Source: a virus (Duplodnaviria; Caudoviricetes). From it: DNA of 64,000 nucleotides. Both the position numbers and the translations under genes were made by a program. The stretch is taken from positions 32,001 to 96,000 of IMG/VR virus record IMGVR_UViG_2563367078_000003; one strand, 5' to 3'. The number at the start of each line of letters is the position of its first letter. Within the stretch, counting starts at the first letter, position 1. The notes under the pieces were generated by a model. That model searched no databases. It was not told the origin of the DNA and saw only the letters and a list, made by a program, of their open reading frames with translations. This document shows, in pieces, positions 32,748-57,056 of this stretch.

Positions 32748-34562
32748 TTAGATGACCCCGAGATCATGGATCGCGCCCATAATTGCTTGAATGCGCTCGA
32801 AAGCACGCGCCACCGGATCGACCGGAATGCGTTGACCGATAGTGATGTTCCACGTCGGCGCGGTTTTGCGATCCCAGGTCAGCGTAATTTCCGAGACACG
32901 GTCCACGTAAATAGACCCGGGAGGTGTGCCTCGAACGGTAGAGCCGATTCTGTCGCCGACATAAAAGTGACCGAAACCGTTTTGACCGACCAGCCATGGC
33001 AAGCCGTCAGCGACCGAGAATTTATGCGTGAATATCTCGCGCGTCGCCCACATCGATGCCCGGAGTCCAAGCAGTGCGGAAATGGTGTAGGCGTTGTCTC
33101 CTCCAGCCGCGAATCGCTCTCTGTAATGACTGAATCCAAGGCTTTGCGCGCGACTCGGATCCTTCCATGCCATAAAACTCAGAAAAACGTCGGTATATAG
33201 CGGCTTGAGCAGGGAATCCAACATTCCGCCAATAGGTGGAACGCCGATCATCATTGCGATCATGTCTCCGGCCATATTCACGGTCGCGGAGATCAATTCA
33301 TTGACACCGGGCATCGAGTGTCCGCCCGTTACGTGCTGAACGTCTTTCGCTGGAGAACCGGTGAACAATGACGTCTGAATACCCGAGTGGGCTTCTTCGC
33401 GGTAGATGATTCCGGGGCACTGCGGCAGCGTTCCGATCCATCCCGGCTGGTAGTACTCCTCGGGGAAGTTCGGGTCGGGAATCGGCAGCGTGCCGTCGTC
33501 GAAACCATCGGTGGCGAACTGCTGCACGGCATAGAGGAGACCGGTGAACAAATCGCCGCCGAAACTGGTCCCGGTGGTGTACCCCGATTTGTCGAGGATA
33601 TCGATGATCAGGCAGCCGTTGCGGAGCTTAGCGCCTTCCCAGGGGGGTGGATCTCCGGTGAGATATCTTCGGAATGTCGGCGTGAGCTGAGCGTCCTGAA
33701 GAATCGGCTTCGCGACGGTGAAGAAATCTTTGAACCGCGCCAGAAGAATAGCGAAGACAGAATTGTCCTGCCCGACCGGATCAGGCGCGACGACCATTGA
33801 CCACGACGACTGATCCAGGTCGAACCACTGATTAGCATCGAGGGGGTCGTCCGGCAGCATCCACAAAGACGATTCGAGCCGGAGAATATTACAGAAAAGC
33901 GTCGTTTTCAGACACCACTTAGCAGGTCCGAAAAGCAGCCACCATTTTGGAAACTGGATCTCGGCGGGCAAAAAAGGATTGGAGCATATTTACCTTGCCA
34001 GGTCCACCCCCCGCCTAGTCTTCCGGGTAATCCAGAATTTCAGCGGGGGGCGGACCCAGCACAGGATGTGCTTCAATTCTTCGAAATCATGCTTGAACAG
34101 CACCCGGCAAATCATCGTGCCGTCTTGCTGTTTCTCGATTTCGTAGTGATCCATGCGGCCCGACCAGCGGACCCCATCCTTATCGACGGTTACATGGATA
34201 TTCTTGGTCGTACGACCATCATGGTTGATAACCCATTGACTGAGGTAATAGTCGACAGGCATCTCGATCTTGCCCGAGCCGGTCTCGCCGTCGATCTCCT
34301 GGAAACTCGCGGTATAGGCGTGCGCGACCCTCCCTCGCAGGATCCAGTTGCCGTCGAATAGTTTGACGGTCGGCATCCTGAGGCGGTTGTCGCGCTGTTG
34401 TTTGATGTTGTTGACGATCGACCAGTATTCGGCGTCGCAATCGATCGGAGTTACTTCGGAATCAGGCTCGCCGGGGCCGCGATGAAACGGCTTTCGCAGC
34501 GTTACGGTCTGAGCCTCTTGCCGATATCGGCGGGCGTCTGTTGGCCCGAGGTTGTGAATCAT
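32748..34562 (-). CDS. minor tail protein (mycobacteriophage Gp37/ReqiPepy6-like), interrupted by a 72-nt insertion at 33984-34055
   Basis: Both ORFs are in the same frame; removing the insert gives ...ELKHILCW-SNPFLPAEIQFPK... Confidence 0.75.
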
Positions 34563-34575
34563 GCAGAGCCTTTGC

Positions 34576-35514
34576 TCACTCTAGTCCCCAAGGTCTCGAC
34601 CAGCTGCGGGGGCATCTGAGTTGAATGGAATTGCCGACTCCTGCGCCGGACACCGCGATCGGAACCGGGGTAGGCTGCGTATACGCGGGAATCGGGTACA
34701 GGAATTCGACGCCGTTCATCCGCTGGTAAATCGCGGTGTCGAGGCTGGAGACGACCTGTCCGGCCATTGTCATTTCATCGGTGTCGACGACGACGTTTTC
34801 ACCTGCGATCAGCGAGGGCATGGTGATCATGCGGCTGGCGTCGACGGTGGCGCGGTTGAAGCGGCTGTCGCCGTAGGAGTAATCGGGCAGGTGCCAGGTG
34901 ATACCGGCGTTACCGGCTTGCAGGACCCATTTCGCCCACTGTTCGTTGTTGGTGGGGTTCCACTCGGTCAGCGTCGTTGTTTCGAGGCCGCCGTGCGTGG
35001 TGTCCGTCTTTGTAATGTAAGTCTGTGTCCAGTCGTCTTCGACCCATCGCGGATATGCGGCGACGAACGTGACGAGAAGTAGGCCATACCGGCGCTCGTT
35101 CGGGTCGGATTGGACTTTGAGTTTCGGCGTGCCCTTCATGCGGACCGTCAAATACCTCGTGGATTCGCCGACGATCTTGCAGTAGATCCGGCCGTCCTGC
35201 GTATAGCTCAGGCTCTTGCGGAACCGCGAATCGTTGACACGCCACGGAACGTCTTGTGTCGATTTGACGTTGAACGCGAACGCGAATTCGAACATATTCT
35301 CGCGCAGGCCGGTGTATCTGCCGCCGATCTCGAACGCCGTGGACTGGTAGATGGTGTCGATCGGCGATTCGTAGACGTCCTCGAAAGCTGTGCCGAGGCT
35401 TTGCGCGGTGAGGGTGATGCCTTCGTTGCCGTGAAAGTCGCCGCCAGACCAGTGATAGACGTTGTTGTCGGGGCCGACGTAATAGATTTCAAGCTTCTCG
35501 GGAGGGGCGGCCAA
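34576..35514 (-). CDS. distal/minor tail protein
   Basis: follows the tape measure gene; WNPT..EQWAKW, FLYPIP.YT, WSRPWGLE. Confidence 0.85.
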   Translation of the reverse strand: MAAPPEKLEIYYVGPDNNVYHWSGGDFHGNEGITLTAQSLGTAFEDVYESPIDTIYQSTAFEIGGRYTGLRENMFEFAFAFNVKSTQDVPWRVNDSRFRKSLSYTQDGRIYCKIVGESTRYLTVRMKGTPKLKVQSDPNERRYGLLLVTFVAAYPRWVEDDWTQTYITKTDTTHGGLETTTLTEWNPTNNEQWAKWVLQAGNAGITWHLPDYSYGDSRFNRATVDASRMITMPSLIAGENVVVDTDEMTMAGQVVSSLDTAIYQRMNGVEFLYPIPAYTQPTPVPIAVSGAGVGNSIQLRCPRSWSRPWGLE

Positions 35515-35534
35515 TGCGGGACCTTTCGAGCAGA

Positions 35535-35576
35535 AGAAAAGGCCCTCCATCCATCACTGAACGAAGGGCCTTTTCT
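35535..35576 (-). terminator. hairpin after the tape measure gene
   Basis: AGAAAAGGCCCT/AGGGCCTTTTCT followed by a U-rich stretch on the minus strand. Confidence 0.55.
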
Positions 35577-46302: not shown

Positions 46303-49008
46303 TTACGCCTGGCCCTGAAGGACCTTGAAAGCGTTCGGAACCAGAACGACCGAGTTGTTCATCCAGATCGCATAAATACCGCGCTGGCCGGTCGGACGCT
46401 GGTTCGAACCGAATACCTGGGGGATCAGCTCGACACTCATGCCGATACGGTCCACAATCAGGAACTGCTGGAAATCACCAAAGATCAGGAACAGGTCGCC
46501 GGTAGCGTGGGTCGACGCCATGACCGAGGACTCCAGAGCTGGGTAACCCAGCAGCTCCGAAGGCATTCCCGCGCCAATGCGCTGCCACAGCTGAGCGCCA
46601 CCGTACTGATCGAACTGGCGAATCTTATTGTAATTCGCGCGGTGAGCGATAAACTTGGCGTTCGCATTACGCCAGCGCGGATCGAGGCTTTCCTCGAGGT
46701 GGTAAACATCAGCGGCAGTGAATGCCTGACCCGGAGTCGCGGCCACGTAGGAACCGCCCGGCAGAGTGCCGATGACGCCGCCCGCGTTGGTGCCGGTGCC
46801 ATCCCCCAGCATGAACGAGTTCGCCTCTTCGCGACCCTTGGCGTCAACCAGAGCGCGGGTGATCTCGGAACGCACCTGCGACCAAGACTCAGCCAATTCG
46901 TACGAGAACGGAATGAAGCCAGCGACACGGTTGGTCTTCACGGTCGGCTGGGTCAGGGAGAAGCTGTTGTCCGACGCTTCCGACGCCTCAGCAGAACGGG
47001 TGACGCTGGTGCCCGCAGACACGACGCCCATCCATTCCTTGCCGACGATCTGCTCGACGCGGGAAACGCTCCGCAGCGGATCGATGACGCCAGCACTCGT
47101 AAGGATTACAGTAGGATCGAGTTCGAACGGCACAGCATACCCGCCGCTACCGTCAGTTCCCAAAGACAGAGCACGATATTCCTCGCCGGACAGCATCTGC
47201 GGCGTACCCGCAGCAACCGTCTTCGACCAGGCGCGCTCATACAAGCTCGAGCCGGTCCGCAGCATCCGATGAGCCAGGGTGGCGTTCTCGTCGTCGACGG
47301 TGTCCAGCAGCGCCTGTGCGCTCGTCTGAGCGTCCTCCTTGGCAACCATGCGGGTGTAGTTGGCGCGCTCGATTGCACGGGCGGCGTTGTCCCGGACCAG
47401 CTGCAGGTAGTCGTCCTCGTTGTGCGACGCCTGGCGGATCTCGTTCAGGTCGTAGATGTTCTCCGGCTTGCGGCTACCGGTCGGAGCAGACGAGAACGAA
47501 CGCTCGGTGCGGCCCTCCCGCTCGCCCTCGGCCAGCTCGTCCATCCGCTTCAGAATCGCGGCGATACGAGCCTCCACCTTCGGCCGCTCATCGCGGAGTT
47601 CGGTGTTCTCGGTCTCGACGTCGGCAGGCAGCTCAGCGTCACGGAATTCGACATTGATCTCGGCAACGCGGGCATCGATCTCCGCCAGGCGCTGCCGCAA
47701 CTCGGTAAGAGTCACAGGGGTTTTCCTCTTTACGGGAGCCTCATCGGCTCGGGTTTCTTTCTTTTCGGACTCCCGTGCGCGCAAGGTGCCTTCATCGGCG
47801 GCGTTGTCGTCTTCGGGGTTAATGGCGTCGGTCAGGGTGTCGCGTTGTTCGACGGCGCTGTCCTCAGCGGATTTGGATTCGATGTCAGCGCCGAACTTCT
47901 TCGCTGCGGCCCTGATCTTCGATTTGATTGCCTGCAATTCATCGGGGCTGTAGCCCTTCTGGTTTTTCGGCATGTTTATGTACGACCACGCGGCCCTGAC
48001 GTGAGCCTTCGTGTCGATCGGGTATTTGCCGTTCTTCGGATCTGCGTAAGCGACGTCGCCGTAAGGCTTTTTGTCATCGCTGGCGCGGCCGTCCGGCATA
48101 GTCGGGGAATGCGTCATACAGACGCCGTTGGAAAAGGAATGCTCTACGCCGTCTTCATCGACATACGTATCGACCTCGGCGTCGACATCCTTTGTGTCGT
48201 CATCGCCATCGGTGTCGCCGTCGAGTGCGGTTTCCGGCGGATCGGTCGGGCCGTCGCGGAGTTCTTTCGCCGTCTCGATCGCCTTGTCGACATCCGCCAT
48301 ATGAATGTGGATCTCGGTCTTCGGAGGTTCGCTGCGGACGGTTTCATCGGCCTTCGGAGCGGCTTCCAGCTCGGCCATCGTTCGGCGGTATTCATCGACA
48401 ATCGCCTGGCGCTGTTCGTCGGTGATCTCGTCCATCGAACGGACGCCAACCGAAGTGCCTTCGTAAGCCGGATAAATCACAGGCCCGGCTTCCATCAGCT
48501 TGACCTCGCGGATAGTCCGCTGCAATGGGCCGCGATCTCCGGCATCCCACAGGAGCCTGTTCAGCTCATTGCCGCCAACGCTCCGCCCCTGAGAGTCGGA
48601 CCAGTCCTGGCGAGTGACAGTGAAAGTGAACGACATTCCGCTGATGGCCTGCGCTTCAATGGCCTGGCGGATCGGCTCGACGAGGTCGTTTTCAAAAAGC
48701 CGTGCCTCTACATACAAGCCGTGGTCGTCTTCGCGCATCTCGGTGAAGACGCCGATCGGGACGCCACCAGTGCGGGAATCACGGCCGTGCGCGAACTGGC
48801 AAATAGGAAGCTTGCCCTCTTGGAGGGTCTTTTTGAAGCAGCCAGGAGCCAAGCGCTCGGTAAACGCGCCTTCGAAACTATTGATTTGCGTGTCTTGTCC
48901 AAAAACAGCCGCGTAGCCGCACAACGTTCTCTTATCACTGGGAGCATCACCGGTTGCGGCTAGCGTGAAATCGACGTCGCGAGTTATGATTCTATTGGCT
49001 GGAGGCAT
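46303..49008 (-). CDS. HK97-type prohead protease - major capsid protein fusion
   Basis: GYAAVF, H, SGMSF.F, E..PV.YPAY; central PYGDV.YADP...YPIDT..HVRAAWSYI (DUF6582-like); GGYAVP, FGDF. Confidence 0.9.
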   Translation of the reverse strand: MPPANRIITRDVDFTLAATGDAPSDKRTLCGYAAVFGQDTQINSFEGAFTERLAPGCFKKTLQEGKLPICQFAHGRDSRTGGVPIGVFTEMREDDHGLYVEARLFENDLVEPIRQAIEAQAISGMSFTFTVTRQDWSDSQGRSVGGNELNRLLWDAGDRGPLQRTIREVKLMEAGPVIYPAYEGTSVGVRSMDEITDEQRQAIVDEYRRTMAELEAAPKADETVRSEPPKTEIHIHMADVDKAIETAKELRDGPTDPPETALDGDTDGDDDTKDVDAEVDTYVDEDGVEHSFSNGVCMTHSPTMPDGRASDDKKPYGDVAYADPKNGKYPIDTKAHVRAAWSYINMPKNQKGYSPDELQAIKSKIRAAAKKFGADIESKSAEDSAVEQRDTLTDAINPEDDNAADEGTLRARESEKKETRADEAPVKRKTPVTLTELRQRLAEIDARVAEINVEFRDAELPADVETENTELRDERPKVEARIAAILKRMDELAEGEREGRTERSFSSAPTGSRKPENIYDLNEIRQASHNEDDYLQLVRDNAARAIERANYTRMVAKEDAQTSAQALLDTVDDENATLAHRMLRTGSSLYERAWSKTVAAGTPQMLSGEEYRALSLGTDGSGGYAVPFELDPTVILTSAGVIDPLRSVSRVEQIVGKEWMGVVSAGTSVTRSAEASEASDNSFSLTQPTVKTNRVAGFIPFSYELAESWSQVRSEITRALVDAKGREEANSFMLGDGTGTNAGGVIGTLPGGSYVAATPGQAFTAADVYHLEESLDPRWRNANAKFIAHRANYNKIRQFDQYGGAQLWQRIGAGMPSELLGYPALESSVMASTHATGDLFLIFGDFQQFLIVDRIGMSVELIPQVFGSNQRPTGQRGIYAIWMNNSVVLVPNAFKVLQGQA

Positions 49009-49598
49009 CTATCTAGCTCCTCGATAAACTCCTCAGCAGTCTTCGCATTCTTCCGAAGGTTGCACTGCTGGCAGGAACGAACGAGGTTCCACCAATGATC
49101 GGTGCCGCCTCGAGATAATGGATTCATGTGATCGACATGCATCGACTCAGCGGATTTCCCGCAGTAATAGCAGGGGTCGTTGGCTATACGTTTGCGCCAT
49201 TCAACCGAGTCGATCTTGTCTTGGGCCGTCATGCCGACTGCGCCTTGGTGACGCCTTCTGGCGCTGTGGGCGCGGAAATATTCAGGATGGCCGTCTCGCC
49301 ACTCTTTGTTCATGGCGAGGATGTGCTCTTTATTCGCTAGGTAACGATCCCGGAAGTAGCCAGGATTGGCCTCGCACCAGTTCTTGAATCGCTCCTGCGA
49401 GGCTTCTTTGTTGCGCCAGTAGTAGTCACGCATGTCCGCCAGGTTCTTGTCGCGGTTCTCGTAATATCGGGCGCGCTTATTGGCTAGCAGCTTTTCGCGA
49501 TTTTCCGCTTCGTAAGCTTTTCTGTAGTGCGGTCTGCACTTCTTTTTGCAATAGACTGGATCGTTGCAATTTTCGATCTCGCAAACAGGCTTACTCAA
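48984..49598 (-). CDS. HNH endonuclease
   Basis: CYYCG...HVDHMNPLSRGG....NLVRSCQQCN..K. Confidence 0.9.
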   Translation of the reverse strand: MSKPVCEIENCNDPVYCKKKCRPHYRKAYEAENREKLLANKRARYYENRDKNLADMRDYYWRNKEASQERFKNWCEANPGYFRDRYLANKEHILAMNKEWRDGHPEYFRAHSARRRHQGAVGMTAQDKIDSVEWRKRIANDPCYYCGKSAESMHVDHMNPLSRGGTDHWWNLVRSCQQCNLRKNAKTAEEFIEELDRCLQPIES

Positions 49599-56777: not shown

Positions 56778-57056
56778 TCAGCCCCATTTGCGGGAAATAT
56801 TGACGTTTTGTTCGTAGTGTCCGCCGCGCTTTTCATTGCAGTCGCGATGCGCTGGTCGAATATTGGATGGGTCGTAGATGCGATGTGGCGCGAGATGGCG
56901 CGGCTGCACATGATCGGCGGTCCAGCCCCACTTGGCAGTTCCAGGCAGCGACAGATCTATCTCCGCGCCGCAGATGTGACACACCGGAGCCAGAGTCGCT
57001 TTCAGGCGTCTACACAGATTTTTCCACTCGGCGGTCTTCAGCTCCGGTGCGGACAT
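56778..57056 (-). CDS. packaging-associated HNH endonuclease
   Basis: CHICG..ID...TADHVQP...N.RPAHRDCN.KRG; near the genome end. Confidence 0.85.
   Translation of the reverse strand: MSAPELKTAEWKNLCRRLKATLAPVCHICGAEIDLSLPGTAKWGWTADHVQPRHLAPHRIYDPSNIRPAHRDCNEKRGGHYEQNVNISRKWG

What the first reader, a model, noticed from the sequence alone, without database searches (positions are those of the whole stretch)
33984..34055. 72-nt hairpin insertion with an in-frame stop splits a minor tail gene: translational bypass or mini-intron candidate
Seen: ORFs 33990-34562 and 32748-33971 share a frame. The mRNA reads ...CAC ATC CTG TGC TGG [GTCCGCCCCCCGCTGAAATTCTGGATTACCCGGAAGACTAGGCGGGGGGTGGACCTGGCAAGGTAAATATGC] TCC AAT CCT TTT TTG CCC. 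Removing the bracket gives HILCW-SNPFLPAEIQFP, which from recall matches the continuous motif of actinophage minor tail proteins. The insert forms a 19-bp stem (three G-U pairs) that starts in the UGC UGG codons, contains UAA in frame, and ends with AAGG 6 nt before a UGC codon. Established: T4 gene 60 bypassing uses a take-off hairpin and a mini Shine-Dalgarno before the landing codon, and introns are known in cluster J mycobacteriophage tail and capsid genes. Inference: ribosome hopping (UGC or UGG to UGC), or a collapsed group I intron relic (it has GACUA and AAGGUA words) that is too short to self-splice and might need a trans-acting partner.
Basis: partly seen in the sequence, partly recalled or inferred. 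Interest (0 to 1): 0.85.

Follow-up and report, generated by a model that had tools for sequence, protein, structure and literature searches.

The report
Mobile hairpin gap in phage tail gene
A 72-base hairpin that cuts a prophage tail gene in two is one copy of a conserved family of small hairpin inserts found only in this kind of gene; cells probably skip it when making the protein, perhaps as in the rare phage T4 gene 60 ribosome hop, but this is untested.

Summary
Window 33984-34055 (- strand) is an exact 24-codon (72-nt) insert between the conserved HILCW and SNPFLP of a Gp37-like minor tail gene. None of 26 homologs examined has it.

It is not a one-off. I recovered DNA of 20 related 48-72-nt inserts at four sites of this gene family. 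A fifth site is known only from protein tails.
- All 20 lie in sense orientation.
- Each is a 20-28-bp hairpin whose base includes the last nucleotides of exon 1, paired to a matching "guide", followed by a short tail.
- The last three bases usually resemble the last exon-1 codon.
- Stems covary, and wobble pairs fit only the sense strand (40 G.U against 1 C.A).
- Flanking exons are intact in 12 of 12 genes.
- Strong model matches in seven whole genomes lie only in this gene.
- Inteins occupy the same motifs.

This argues against a dead gene. How the gap is skipped is unproven. I favour a ribosome hop, but several gene 60 hallmarks are missing, and I found no isolated phage carrying an insert.

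The parts
34056..34562 (-). Exon 1 of the Gp37-like minor tail gene (169 codons, ATG at 34562, ends ...CAC ATC CTG TGC TGG)
   Evidence: ORF list and translation; PF14594 positions 2-104 and phrog_110 positions 30-174; aligns to homologs up to HILCW.
33984..34055 (-). 72-nt hairpin mini-insert (24 codons, in frame, with a UAA stop), absent from the 26 homologs examined
   Evidence: 24-residue gap in 26 of 26 tblastn alignments. DNA matches in relatives stop near query 500-507 and resume at 577-582, with 72 nt fewer in between. Only full-length model match in the 10.4-Mb genome.
33996..34061 (-). Main hairpin. The 20-bp stem has its 5' strand at 34042-34061, which includes the exon codons UGC UGG at 34056-34061, and its 3' strand at 33996-34015. 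An inner 6-bp stem lies at 34032-34037 / 34021-34026.
   Evidence: ViennaRNA folds: -61.6 kcal/mol for 121 nt, z -6.1. The same architecture is seen in all 20 family members.
33996..34001 (-). 'Guide' CUGGCA, paired to the last six exon-1 nucleotides UGCUGG (two G.U pairs)
   Evidence: Fold. In the family, exon positions -1, -2 and -3 are paired in 19, 20 and 20 of 20 inserts, and the partner sequence changes with the insertion site.
33984..33995 (-). Single-stranded tail AGGUAAAUAUGC. It holds the SD-like AAGG, the in-frame UAA (33990-33992), and a final UGC that resembles the exon-1 codons UGC UGG.
   Evidence: Read from the sequence; tails of the family compared.
32748..33983 (-). Exon 2 (411 codons plus stop; begins UCC AAU CCU = SNP, ends ..HDLGVI)
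   Evidence: Open to the conserved C-terminus; PF14594 positions 105-369 at 231 bits, phrog_110 positions 174-579 at 512 bits.
34576..35550 (-). Upstream minor tail gene (324 aa, phrog_106), intact; context of the tail module
   Evidence: PHROGs scan.

Best explanation
The 72 nt is one copy of a gene-specific family of small mobile hairpin inserts (48-72 nt) living in the Gp37-like minor tail genes of prophages of Nocardia and related actinobacteria.

Each insert sits directly after a codon of a highly conserved motif. It starts with G and folds into a long GC-rich helix. That helix also swallows the last 3-6 exon-1 nucleotides by pairing them to a site-specific 'guide' just after the 3' arm. 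A short tail follows, and its last three bases usually resemble the last exon-1 codon.

I propose that the insert does not kill the gene. When the ribosome holds the last exon-1 codon (UGG here) in the P site, refolding of the helix strips that codon from the peptidyl-tRNA. The ribosome then passes the gap and resumes at UCC (Ser), giving ...HILCW-SNPFLP...

Shown here: the insert, the family, the structural conservation on the sense strand, and the intact exons.

Inferred, not shown: that the gene stays functional, and that the skipping is done by the ribosome rather than at the RNA or DNA level.
For: 1. Precise 72-nt insertion: 26 of 26 homologs are continuous at this site.

2. Family. 20 inserts were recovered as DNA, at site A after ..CW, site B after NPF, site D after LLF and site E after SMPGV. 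Protein tails show site A in six more lineages and a further site C after PRIW. Source names place carriers in Rhodococcoides fascians, Mycobacteroides abscessus and Nocardia.

3. Structure under selection. RNAalifold on 12 inserts gives 20 pairs, 17 of them with both-sided changes. In the 20 individual folds, insert positions 1-14 are paired in 20 of 20. Non-Watson-Crick positions are 40 G.U against 1 C.A and 1 G.A, so the helix fits only the sense strand. All 20 inserts are in sense orientation.

4. Exon-guide pairing covaries with the site: TTT with AAA, GTT with AAC, GTC with GAC or GAUC, UGCUGG with CUGGCA. [quoted passage not shown]

5. Host genes are not decaying. In 12 of 12 checked genes the exons are open to the conserved ..LGV end, including one gene with two inserts. 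Same-site pairs have saturated synonymous sites (pS 0.6-0.8) with pN 0.13-0.4, yet the six pairs among the four longer site-B inserts keep 40-43 of 52-55 columns identical; the pairs with L087 keep 30-34.

6. The metagenome relative X1 has 1 change in the 72-nt insert against 25 in 243 nt of exon 1. Of the 20 changed exon codons, 16 are synonymous.

7. Gene-specific. The model R1 finds no other full-length copy in the own genome and only Gp37 sites in 5 other genomes. In 151 genomes of the genus, all 10 places scoring 37 bits or more lie in Gp37-like genes.

8. Two inteins sit in the same conserved segment, as expected for selfish elements that must spare function.

9. The last exon codon is the rare U-ending one in carriers: TTT in 7 of 7 against 9 of 85 Phe codons in non-carriers, and GTT in 6 of 11 against 1 of 44 Val codons. 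The insert ends in GTC or TTC in 7 cases. That is weak pairing at take-off and strong pairing at landing.

10. Insert lengths fall in all three classes modulo 3, and 8 of 8 in-frame inserts carry stops, so the inserts are not read as protein.
Against: - No direct evidence of a joined protein or RNA. No RNA run was listed.
- Gene 60 hallmarks are missing. The codon after the putative take-off is a common sense codon (GUC here), not a stop or a rare codon (compare).
- The last three bases are cognate with the take-off codon in only 7 of 20 inserts. They agree in two of three bases in 10 (including UGG/UGC here) and in one of three in 3. They could equally be a decaying 3-bp target duplication.
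- UGG triplets occur inside this gap.
- The four or five sites have different upstream peptides, so there is no common nascent-peptide signal.
- The helices (20-28 bp) are far longer than the gene 60 hairpin, and ribosomes normally unwind such helices.
- The SD-like purines are absent from most site-E tails.
- I found no insert in isolated phages. blastn of five insert types against 50,697 phage records gave only chance hits. The closest relatives of the M. abscessus carrier, including phiGD24-3, lack the 52 nt.
- The P-values overstate significance, because the sequences are kin.
Confidence: 0.4

Rival explanations
1. Inactivating insertion. A small mobile hairpin has knocked out the tail gene. 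The prophage is defective, and the family spreads among resident prophage copies, for example by gene conversion, without any rescue of expression.
For: - An in-frame stop at 33990-33992. Frame-shifting lengths in 12 of 20 inserts and stops in 8 of 8 in-frame ones.
- No isolated phage with an insert was found.
- Carriers seen so far are prophages or metagenome contigs.
- Several gene 60 hallmarks are missing.
- Some genomes hold several Gp37-like copies, up to six matches, so conversion between copies is conceivable.
Against: - 12 of 12 carrier genes have fully open exons and dN/dS well below 1 where it could be computed, between carriers whose synonymous sites are saturated.
- The hairpin is maintained by compensatory changes, and only on the sense strand.
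- The exon's last synonymous base covaries with the guide.
- The insert plus about 50 nt of flank is nearly identical in a lineage that is otherwise 10% diverged.
- The other virion genes scanned in the window hit their PHROG families and lie in long open frames.
- A dead allele cannot spread between hosts through phage particles.
Confidence: 0.22
2. RNA-level removal. The hairpin marks a mini-intron that a trans-acting endonuclease and ligase, from the host or the phage, cut out of the mRNA.
For: - Sense-strand-specific structure.
- The exon-guide helix resembles the pairing that defines the 5' splice site in group I and II introns (my recollection of those families).
- Introns are spliced from tail and capsid genes of cluster J mycobacteriophages (PMC3706429, passages).
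- The island here is about 110 kb at 59% GC, like cluster J phages (my recollection).
Against: - 48-72 nt of near-perfect helix leaves no ribozyme core.
- No Rfam family matches beyond chance.
- Exon 1 ends in G, T or C and the inserts end in various bases, not the U...G of the cluster J introns.
- There is no bulge-helix-bulge motif: the 5' cut would lie inside a helix and the 3' cut in a single strand.
- No RtcB ligase (PF01139) in this 100%-complete genome. Other ligase families were not searched.
Confidence: 0.12
3. DNA-level precise excision. The hairpin is lost from a fraction of the genomes during lytic replication, by slippage across the hairpin between the short direct repeats or by a hairpin-specific enzyme, and this restores the gene.
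For: - Imperfect 3-nt direct repeats flank most inserts.
- Palindromes are deletion-prone (general knowledge).
- The sense-strand asymmetry would also fit single-strand DNA transposition of the IS200/IS605 type (recalled).
- Isolated phages lacking inserts would be expected under this model.
Against: - No Y1 transposase (PF01797) in the own genome.
- The repeats are only 2-3 nt long and never identical (0 of 20).
- An element lost on every induction could not stay conserved with compensatory changes.
- The contigs laid showed no joint skipping the insert, but only one contig spans it.
Confidence: 0.08
4. Functional split. The insert divides the protein into an N fragment (169 aa plus a 21-aa tail) and a C fragment made by re-initiation (TTG at 33971 or nearby), and the two assemble non-covalently.
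For: - A stop codon followed closely by exon 2 in frame.
- An SD-like AAGG in the tail.
- In L085, GAAGGG lies 7 nt before a UUG at the exon-2 start.
- Split phage genes are known, for example T4 genes 39/60 (recalled).
Against: - There is no usable start codon or SD at exon 2 in most members. For example, L100, L107, L083 and L087 begin with CUU, CUC, CUA and UUA, with no in-frame start codon directly upstream.
- The AUG here is out of frame, and TTG 33971 would delete the conserved SNPF and has no purine-rich stretch upstream.
- The cuts lie in the most conserved motifs, at four or five different places. One gene has two inserts, and a named Nocardia genome has N- and C-terminal pieces called as separate proteins.
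- N fragments would carry junk tails of variable length.
Confidence: 0.08

Closest known systems
Phage T4 gene 60 50-nt translational bypass and its homologous MobA-associated cassettes (PMC5462505, passages read; bioRxiv 10.1101/2022.08.31.505936, abstract and sections 15-16 read)
   Same: A non-coding gap of about 50 nt (48-72 nt here) inside an essential phage gene at an invariant residue. A hairpin forms around the last decoded codon. Here there is also an SD-like purine run followed by AU-rich bases a few nt before the resume point. The last three bases of the gap often resemble the last decoded codon. The element is mobile and repeatedly inserted in one gene family.
   Different: No stop or rare codon after the take-off codon. 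Cognate take-off and landing triplets in only 7 of 20 inserts. A 20-28-bp perfect helix instead of a short A-site hairpin. Four or five insertion sites, so no shared nascent peptide. No adjacent homing endonuclease gene: the HNH genes of the island lie elsewhere. No sequence similarity. Bypass is untested here.
Mitochondrial 'byp' elements of Magnusiomyces (features recalled; only mentioned in the text read)
   Same: Many short GC-rich hairpin inserts of tens of nucleotides, at various sites of coding regions and in any frame. They are tolerated through ribosome jumping, and imperfect take-off/landing matches are tolerated too.
   Different: Byps occur in many genes of one mitochondrial genome, whereas these inserts were found in a single phage gene family and usually once per bacterial genome. 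As I recall, byps have a stop or unassigned codon after take-off. The ribosomes and hosts differ.
Candidate UUA-dependent bypass in the terminase gene of Streptomyces phage phiHau3 (PMC10732093, abstract and section 3.4 read)
   Same: An actinobacterial phage or prophage structural or packaging gene interrupted at a conserved junction by a short non-coding block, with predicted local RNA structure. The authors propose bypass.
   Different: Those gaps are 7-10 nt and follow a rare UUA codon. Here the gaps are 48-72 nt, there is no rare codon, and a long hairpin is present.
Group I introns in cluster J mycobacteriophage capsid and tail genes (PMC3706429, passages read)
   Same: Intervening sequences in virion genes of large temperate actinophages, absent from close relatives, with precise restoration of the reading frame.
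   Different: Those introns are 265 and 820 bp, with U at the exon-1 end and G at the intron end, and RT-PCR showed splicing. Here there are 72 nt, G and C at the corresponding ends, and no Rfam intron match.
Inteins in the same Gp37-like proteins (PF14890)
   Same: Selfish insertions in the very same conserved segment (KHI|C...HN|CVW and ..TWA|C...HN|CFGP) that spare gene function.
   Different: Inteins are in-frame protein elements that splice after translation. The hairpin inserts carry stops or shift the frame.
MITE / REP-type palindromic repeats
   Same: Short, non-coding, palindromic and apparently mobile, with short flanking direct repeats.
   Different: The own genome holds a single copy. 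Only one gene family is hit, only one orientation occurs, and the helix extends into the target by a site-specific guide.

Membership tests
Gene 60-type programmed translational bypass | A coding gap separates two ORFs that together encode one contiguous conserved protein | tested here: met
   26 of 26 homologs are continuous across the site, and the Pfam and PHROG profiles are contiguous.
Gene 60-type programmed translational bypass | An mRNA hairpin forms around the take-off codon | tested here: met
   The stem includes UGC UGG. Exon positions -1 to -3 are paired in 19-20 of 20 family members.
Gene 60-type programmed translational bypass | Matched take-off and landing codons, readable by the same tRNA | tested here: inconclusive
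   Here UGG against UGC (two of three bases); UGC...UGC lie 75 nt apart, but that hop would drop Trp. In the family: 7 of 20 cognate, 10 of 20 with two of three bases, 3 of 20 with one of three.
Gene 60-type programmed translational bypass | A stop or rare 'hungry' codon directly after the take-off codon | tested here: not met
   The next codon is GUC here and G(U/C)N in all 20. The first in-frame stop here lies 22 codons on. The feature is as described in the text read.
Gene 60-type programmed translational bypass | An SD-like element a few nt 5' of the landing site, flanked by AU-rich sequence | tested here: inconclusive
   Here AAGG plus UAAAUA lies before UGC. It is present in site-B tails and weak or absent in most site-E tails.
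Gene 60-type programmed translational bypass | A nascent-peptide signal and an experimentally joined product | not testable with these tools
   The upstream peptides differ between the sites. No RNA or proteome data are available.
Group I intron | A conserved catalytic core (P3-P9), U at the exon-1 end and G at the intron end | tested here: not met
   Only 72 nt. The Rfam E-value scan gives chance miRNA-like hits only. The ends are G and C.
Group II intron | A six-domain RNA of several hundred nt with GUGYG...AY ends | tested here: not met
   Length is 72 nt, the insert starts GUCCG and ends UGC, and there is no Rfam match. The consensus ends are recalled.
MITE or other multicopy palindromic repeat | Many copies dispersed in the genome, in both orientations | tested here: not met
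   blastn-short and the covariance model find no other full-length copy in 10.4 Mb. In the family, 20 of 20 are in sense orientation and all lie in one gene family.
IS200/IS605-derived palindrome-associated element | A Y1 (HUH) transposase available in the genome | tested here: not met
   PF01797 has 0 matches in the own genome, while the control genomes respond.
Sipho_Gp37 / phrog_110 minor tail protein (the host gene) | A profile match over the whole length | tested here: met
   PF14594 scores 90.8 plus 231.5 bits, and phrog_110 scores 125 plus 512 bits, on the two halves.

The most novel reading that the evidence does not exclude
These inserts are a new class of bacterial 'self-guided' coding-gap elements. 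A mobile hairpin carries a short guide complementary to the codon it lands behind. Refolding of that helix removes the element from decoding, either by a ribosome hop that needs neither a stop codon nor a nascent-peptide signal, or by a still unknown RNA cut-and-join activity. Essential phage genes could then host them much as they host inteins.
Probability: 0.3. Interest if true: 0.92.

Novelty: new variant of a known kind. Interest (0 to 1): 0.8.

Why it matters
Efficient long-range translational bypass is known from very few natural systems: T4 gene 60 and its relatives, and one yeast lineage's mitochondria.

A second bacterial family would give an independent test of what a ribosome needs in order to hop. 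This family has dozens of natural variants at several sites of one gene. It lacks a stop codon and a shared nascent peptide, and it carries a built-in guide that pairs with the take-off codon.

If the removal turns out to be at the RNA level, it would be a new kind of bacterial mRNA splicing.

There is also a practical consequence. Annotation pipelines call these genes as two or three 'Gp37-like' fragments, so prophages that may be fully functional are scored as defective. This includes prophages of Mycobacteroides abscessus, where prophage-derived phages matter for therapy.

Tried and rejected
- **Close DNA relatives among isolated phages.** megablast of the gene found none. blastn of five insert types gave chance hits only.
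- **tblastn against the phage collection.** tblastn of P0020 shows its nearest phage relatives spanning 539 nt instead of 591, so they lack the insert. P0010 gave nothing useful; Annyong gp27 is continuous. tblastn of a full-length Nocardia homolog found 2,373 phage records. The 60 listed are all single pieces, and the other 2,313 could not be inspected.
- **Exon-based pattern ELKHILxWV.** 0 hits in viral contigs, 15 chance hits in genome contigs, and 34 chance hits in metagenome contigs with none homologous by tblastn.
- **RNA evidence.** No RNA holder was listed. The laid runs are DNA contigs only. X2-X4 gave only short or unrelated pieces, and X2's contig stops at the exon/insert border without telling what follows.
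- **Rfam.** Nothing beyond chance.
- **Specificity of model R1.** It is not perfectly specific. Hits of 32-39 bits in G434, G547, G618, G100 and own contig C6 are generic GC-rich hairpins outside Gp37-like genes. R1 scores the window's own insert at only 28 bits because of its large loop, so the window was missed in the strict runs.
- **Other readings rejected.** Stop-codon readthrough would add 24 residues in a conserved motif, and other members shift the frame. Initiation at the AUG in the tail is out of frame, with no usable slippery site. An intrinsic terminator is unlikely because no U tract follows the stem, but this is not excluded as a side effect.
- **Literature.** Searches found no paper describing these inserts. 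Searches were for background. Supplements were not consulted (closed), so supplementary tables of the M. abscessus prophage papers (PMC8092298 and PMC8092301, seen only as search listings) may bear on the split gene.
- **Not run.** Structure prediction and complex prediction; I judged them not decisive.
Full report
**What is in the window**

The genes here lie on the - strand. An ORF at 33990..34562 (190 aa) and an ORF at 32748..33971 share one frame and are separated by a single TAA at 33990-33992. Both are parts of one Gp37-like minor tail protein. PF14594 matches the first at profile positions 2-104 and the second at 105-369. phrog_110 matches at 30-174 and 174-579.

The surroundings are a tail and head module in long open frames:
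- a 2106-aa ORF in the tape-measure position (not scanned);
- a phrog_106 minor tail gene, and further minor tail genes;
- a major tail protein and a head-tail adaptor;
- a 901-aa protease-capsid fusion, a portal and a large terminase.

The window lies in a 59% GC island of about 110 kb, in a 66.8% GC, 10.4-Mb genome. Names attached to identical or related proteins place the genus as Nocardia.

**The insertion is exact**

A DNA search of 400 genomes of the family gave matches that stop near query 500-507 and resume at 577-582, with 72 nt fewer in the relatives. tblastn of the read-through translation against 26 homologous loci, including phages REQ3 and Morgana whose genes are annotated as single CDSs, gave one alignment each. 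All 26 of 26 show a 24-residue gap between HIL[AC]W and SNPFLP. The insert is therefore 34055..33984.

It folds into a 20-bp stem that begins in the exon codons UGC UGG, plus an inner 6-bp stem. The fold has an energy of -61.6 kcal/mol, z = -6.1, and 0 of 200 shuffles fold as well. A 12-nt tail, AGGUAAAUAUGC, follows.

**It is a family**

A search for short proteins like the N half found fragments 46-61% identical that also run on after HIL[CV]W into V[HRC]... tails. The representative library gave more:
- P0010 and P0020 at the same site.
- P0021 after PRIW.
- P0014 and P0018 after NPF.

In P0006, P0020 and P0021 the ORF continues into frame-shifted exon 2, so their inserts are about 68, about 52 and an undetermined number of nucleotides.

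This gave 20 distinct inserts as DNA:

| Site | Position | Inserts | Lengths |
|---|---|---|---|
| A | after ..CW | 2 | 72 and 55 nt |
| B | after NPF | 5 | 48-55 nt |
| D | after LLF | 2 | 48-49 nt |
| E | after SMPGV | 11 | 48-53 nt |

One gene (L100) carries two inserts. One genome (G572) has inserts in two different prophage genes. Six of the IMG/VR loci duplicate loci I already held.

C-terminal pieces of 155-193 aa, called as separate proteins, confirm further splits at site E.

The loci were chosen with a query and a filter that favour carriers, so 13 carriers among those 36 loci is not a frequency. The less biased figures are 1 carrier (L022, site E) among the 26 loci, and 9 of 151 genomes of the genus with verified inserts. 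The window's own genome was missed at that threshold.

**Common anatomy**

- Every insert starts with G directly after a complete codon: TGG, TTT, GTT or GTC.
- Every insert forms a 20-28-bp, GC-rich, nearly perfect helix with an AU-rich loop that often contains UAA or UGA.
- The helix continues into exon 1. Positions -1, -2 and -3 are paired in 19, 20 and 20 of 20 inserts, and -4 in 18 of 20.
- The partner is a short 'guide' right after the 3' arm, and it differs by site: AAA(GGG) for (CCC)TTT, AAC for GTT, GAC or GAUC for GTC, and CUGGCA for UGCUGG.
- A short tail follows. Its last three bases resemble the last exon codon: identical in 0 of 20, cognate for the same tRNA in 7, two of three bases in 10, one of three in 3.
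- Lengths fall in all three classes modulo 3.
- All 8 in-frame inserts carry a stop.

**Evidence for selection on the structure**

RNAalifold on 12 inserts predicts 20 pairs, 17 of them with both-sided changes. In the individual folds, 408 pairs are Watson-Crick and 40 are G.U. Only two 1x1 mismatches occur, one C.A and one G.A. A palindrome kept at the double-strand level should show C.A as often as G.U, so the fold is kept on the sense strand, which means the mRNA or the coding-strand single-stranded DNA. All 20 inserts have the same orientation.

The core of L116 (site E) is nearly the same as that of the window's insert (site A), but the guides differ to fit each site.

In carriers the last exon codon is TTT in 7 of 7, against 9 of 85 Phe codons at those sites in non-carriers. 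It is GTT in 6 of 11, against 1 of 44 Val codons. These sequences are kin, so the P-values overstate the case.

**Evidence that the host genes are alive**

In 12 of 12 carriers examined, both exons are open up to the conserved ..LGV C-terminus. Carriers of same-site inserts have saturated synonymous sites (pS 0.6-0.8) with pN 0.13-0.4. The six pairs among the four longer site-B inserts nevertheless keep 40-43 of 52-55 columns identical, and the pairs with L087 keep 30-34.

A metagenome contig (run X1) 92% identical to the window covers 33962-34298 without gaps. It has one change in the insert, CGC to CAC, which turns a G.U pair into A-U. It has none in the adjacent 48 nt of exon 1 or the 22 nt of exon 2. 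It has 25 in the remaining 195 nt of exon 1, and 16 of the 20 changed codons there are synonymous. Either the insert and its flanks are strongly constrained, or they were recently transferred between lineages. Both are hard to reconcile with a dead allele.

**Gene specificity**

blastn-short finds no other copy in the own genome. The covariance model R1 finds only the known insert there, plus one generic hairpin, and nothing else in the window. In five carrier genomes it finds only the Gp37 sites, among them a second insert in one gene.

In 151 genomes of the genus, all 10 places scoring 37 bits or more lie in Gp37-like genes. Four weaker hits are ordinary hairpins elsewhere. In a family-wide sample, one 39-bit hit in another genus is also an ordinary hairpin, so the model is not perfectly specific.

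The same conserved segment hosts two inteins, PF14890 in P0029 and in the L098 type.

**Mechanism**

No data here show how, or whether, the gap is removed.

Arguments for a ribosome hop:
- The gap size is close to the 50 nt of gene 60.
- There is a hairpin around the take-off codon, which in gene 60 is thought to drag the P-site codon off the tRNA (PMC5462505).
- The quasi-repeat of the last codon sits at the resume point.
- Carriers use U-ending, wobble-read codons at take-off and C-ending triplets at the end of the gap.
- Here, an AAGG followed by AU-rich bases lies 6 nt before the last triplet.

Arguments against a ribosome hop:
- No stop or hungry codon follows the take-off codon, whereas the gene 60 relatives all have one.
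- Matching is imperfect, whereas the gene 60 relatives match.
- UGG triplets lie inside this gap.
- There is no common nascent peptide.
- The helices are very long.

RNA splicing by a known ribozyme is excluded by size, by the ends and by Rfam. An enzyme-based cut-and-join is possible but finds no RtcB in this genome. IS200/IS605-type DNA excision finds no Y1 transposase. The island's HNH genes are not next to the tail gene. Separate translation of the halves lacks start signals in most members.

**Main caveat**

I found no carrier among isolated, plaque-forming phages. Those searches only reach close relatives of the five inserts I used, and few Nocardia phages are in the collection (8 of 2,373 records with the gene).

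I could confirm the existence of the family but not that statement.

**Literature**

My full-text searches did not find these inserts described. Known neighbours are:
- the gene 60 cassettes (bioRxiv 10.1101/2022.08.31.505936; abstract and sections 15-16 read);
- the phiHau3 terminase candidate (PMC10732093; abstract and section 3.4 read);
- the cluster J introns (PMC3706429; passages read).

**Verdict**

The group I relic idea is wrong. The bypass idea is the best of several unproven mechanisms (about 0.4). The finding is considerably larger than one locus.

Noticed in passing
L090, L092, L096, L098, L099, L104 (e.g. L098:1951-2343): Six Nocardia prophage homologs carry an in-frame insertion of about 131 aa between ..FPKTWA and CFGPARW, beginning with C and ending with HN followed by C. 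Pfam calls it an intein splicing domain (PF14890, 42 bits). It is a mini-intein in the same conserved segment as hairpin sites A-D.
   Followed up: partly
P0029 (291 aa, JGI metagenome): A second, different mini-intein sits at KHI|C...VHN|CVWSNP, two residues before hairpin site A (PF14890, 41.8 bits).
   Followed up: partly
L118 (G520:C54, start of contig): The contig ends inside a site-E hairpin, so these GC-rich hairpins may break short-read assemblies and hide further carriers.
   Followed up: no
window 46303-49008 (-): A 901-aa ORF combines a head maturation protease (phrog_80, residues 7-248) with major head protein matches (phrog_10). It is a protease-capsid fusion.
   Followed up: no
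G000 contig C99, about 20-130 kb (the window is 50237-114236): A low-GC island (about 59% against 66.8% for the genome) of about 110 kb. Its size and GC recall cluster J mycobacteriophages (from memory). The island ends and the integrase were not mapped.
   Followed up: partly
window 49044-49172 and 56823-56981 (- strand; G000:C99:99280-99408 and 107059-107217): Two HNH-domain ORFs lie inside the prophage, one of them between the capsid and portal genes. Neither is adjacent to the interrupted tail gene.
   Followed up: no
L113 (G414:C36), query positions 83-93 of the tail protein: Besides its site-E hairpin, this homolog shows a further break in the tblastn alignment near residue 83-93. I did not inspect it; it could be another insert or a lesion.
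   Followed up: no
Nocardia rhizosphaerihabitans proteins P0014 and P0131 (locus tags two apart on the same 192,896-nt contig): The N-terminal and C-terminal pieces of one Gp37-like gene are annotated as separate proteins, which implies inserts at both site B and site E. The annotation gives no hint that they belong together.
   Followed up: partly
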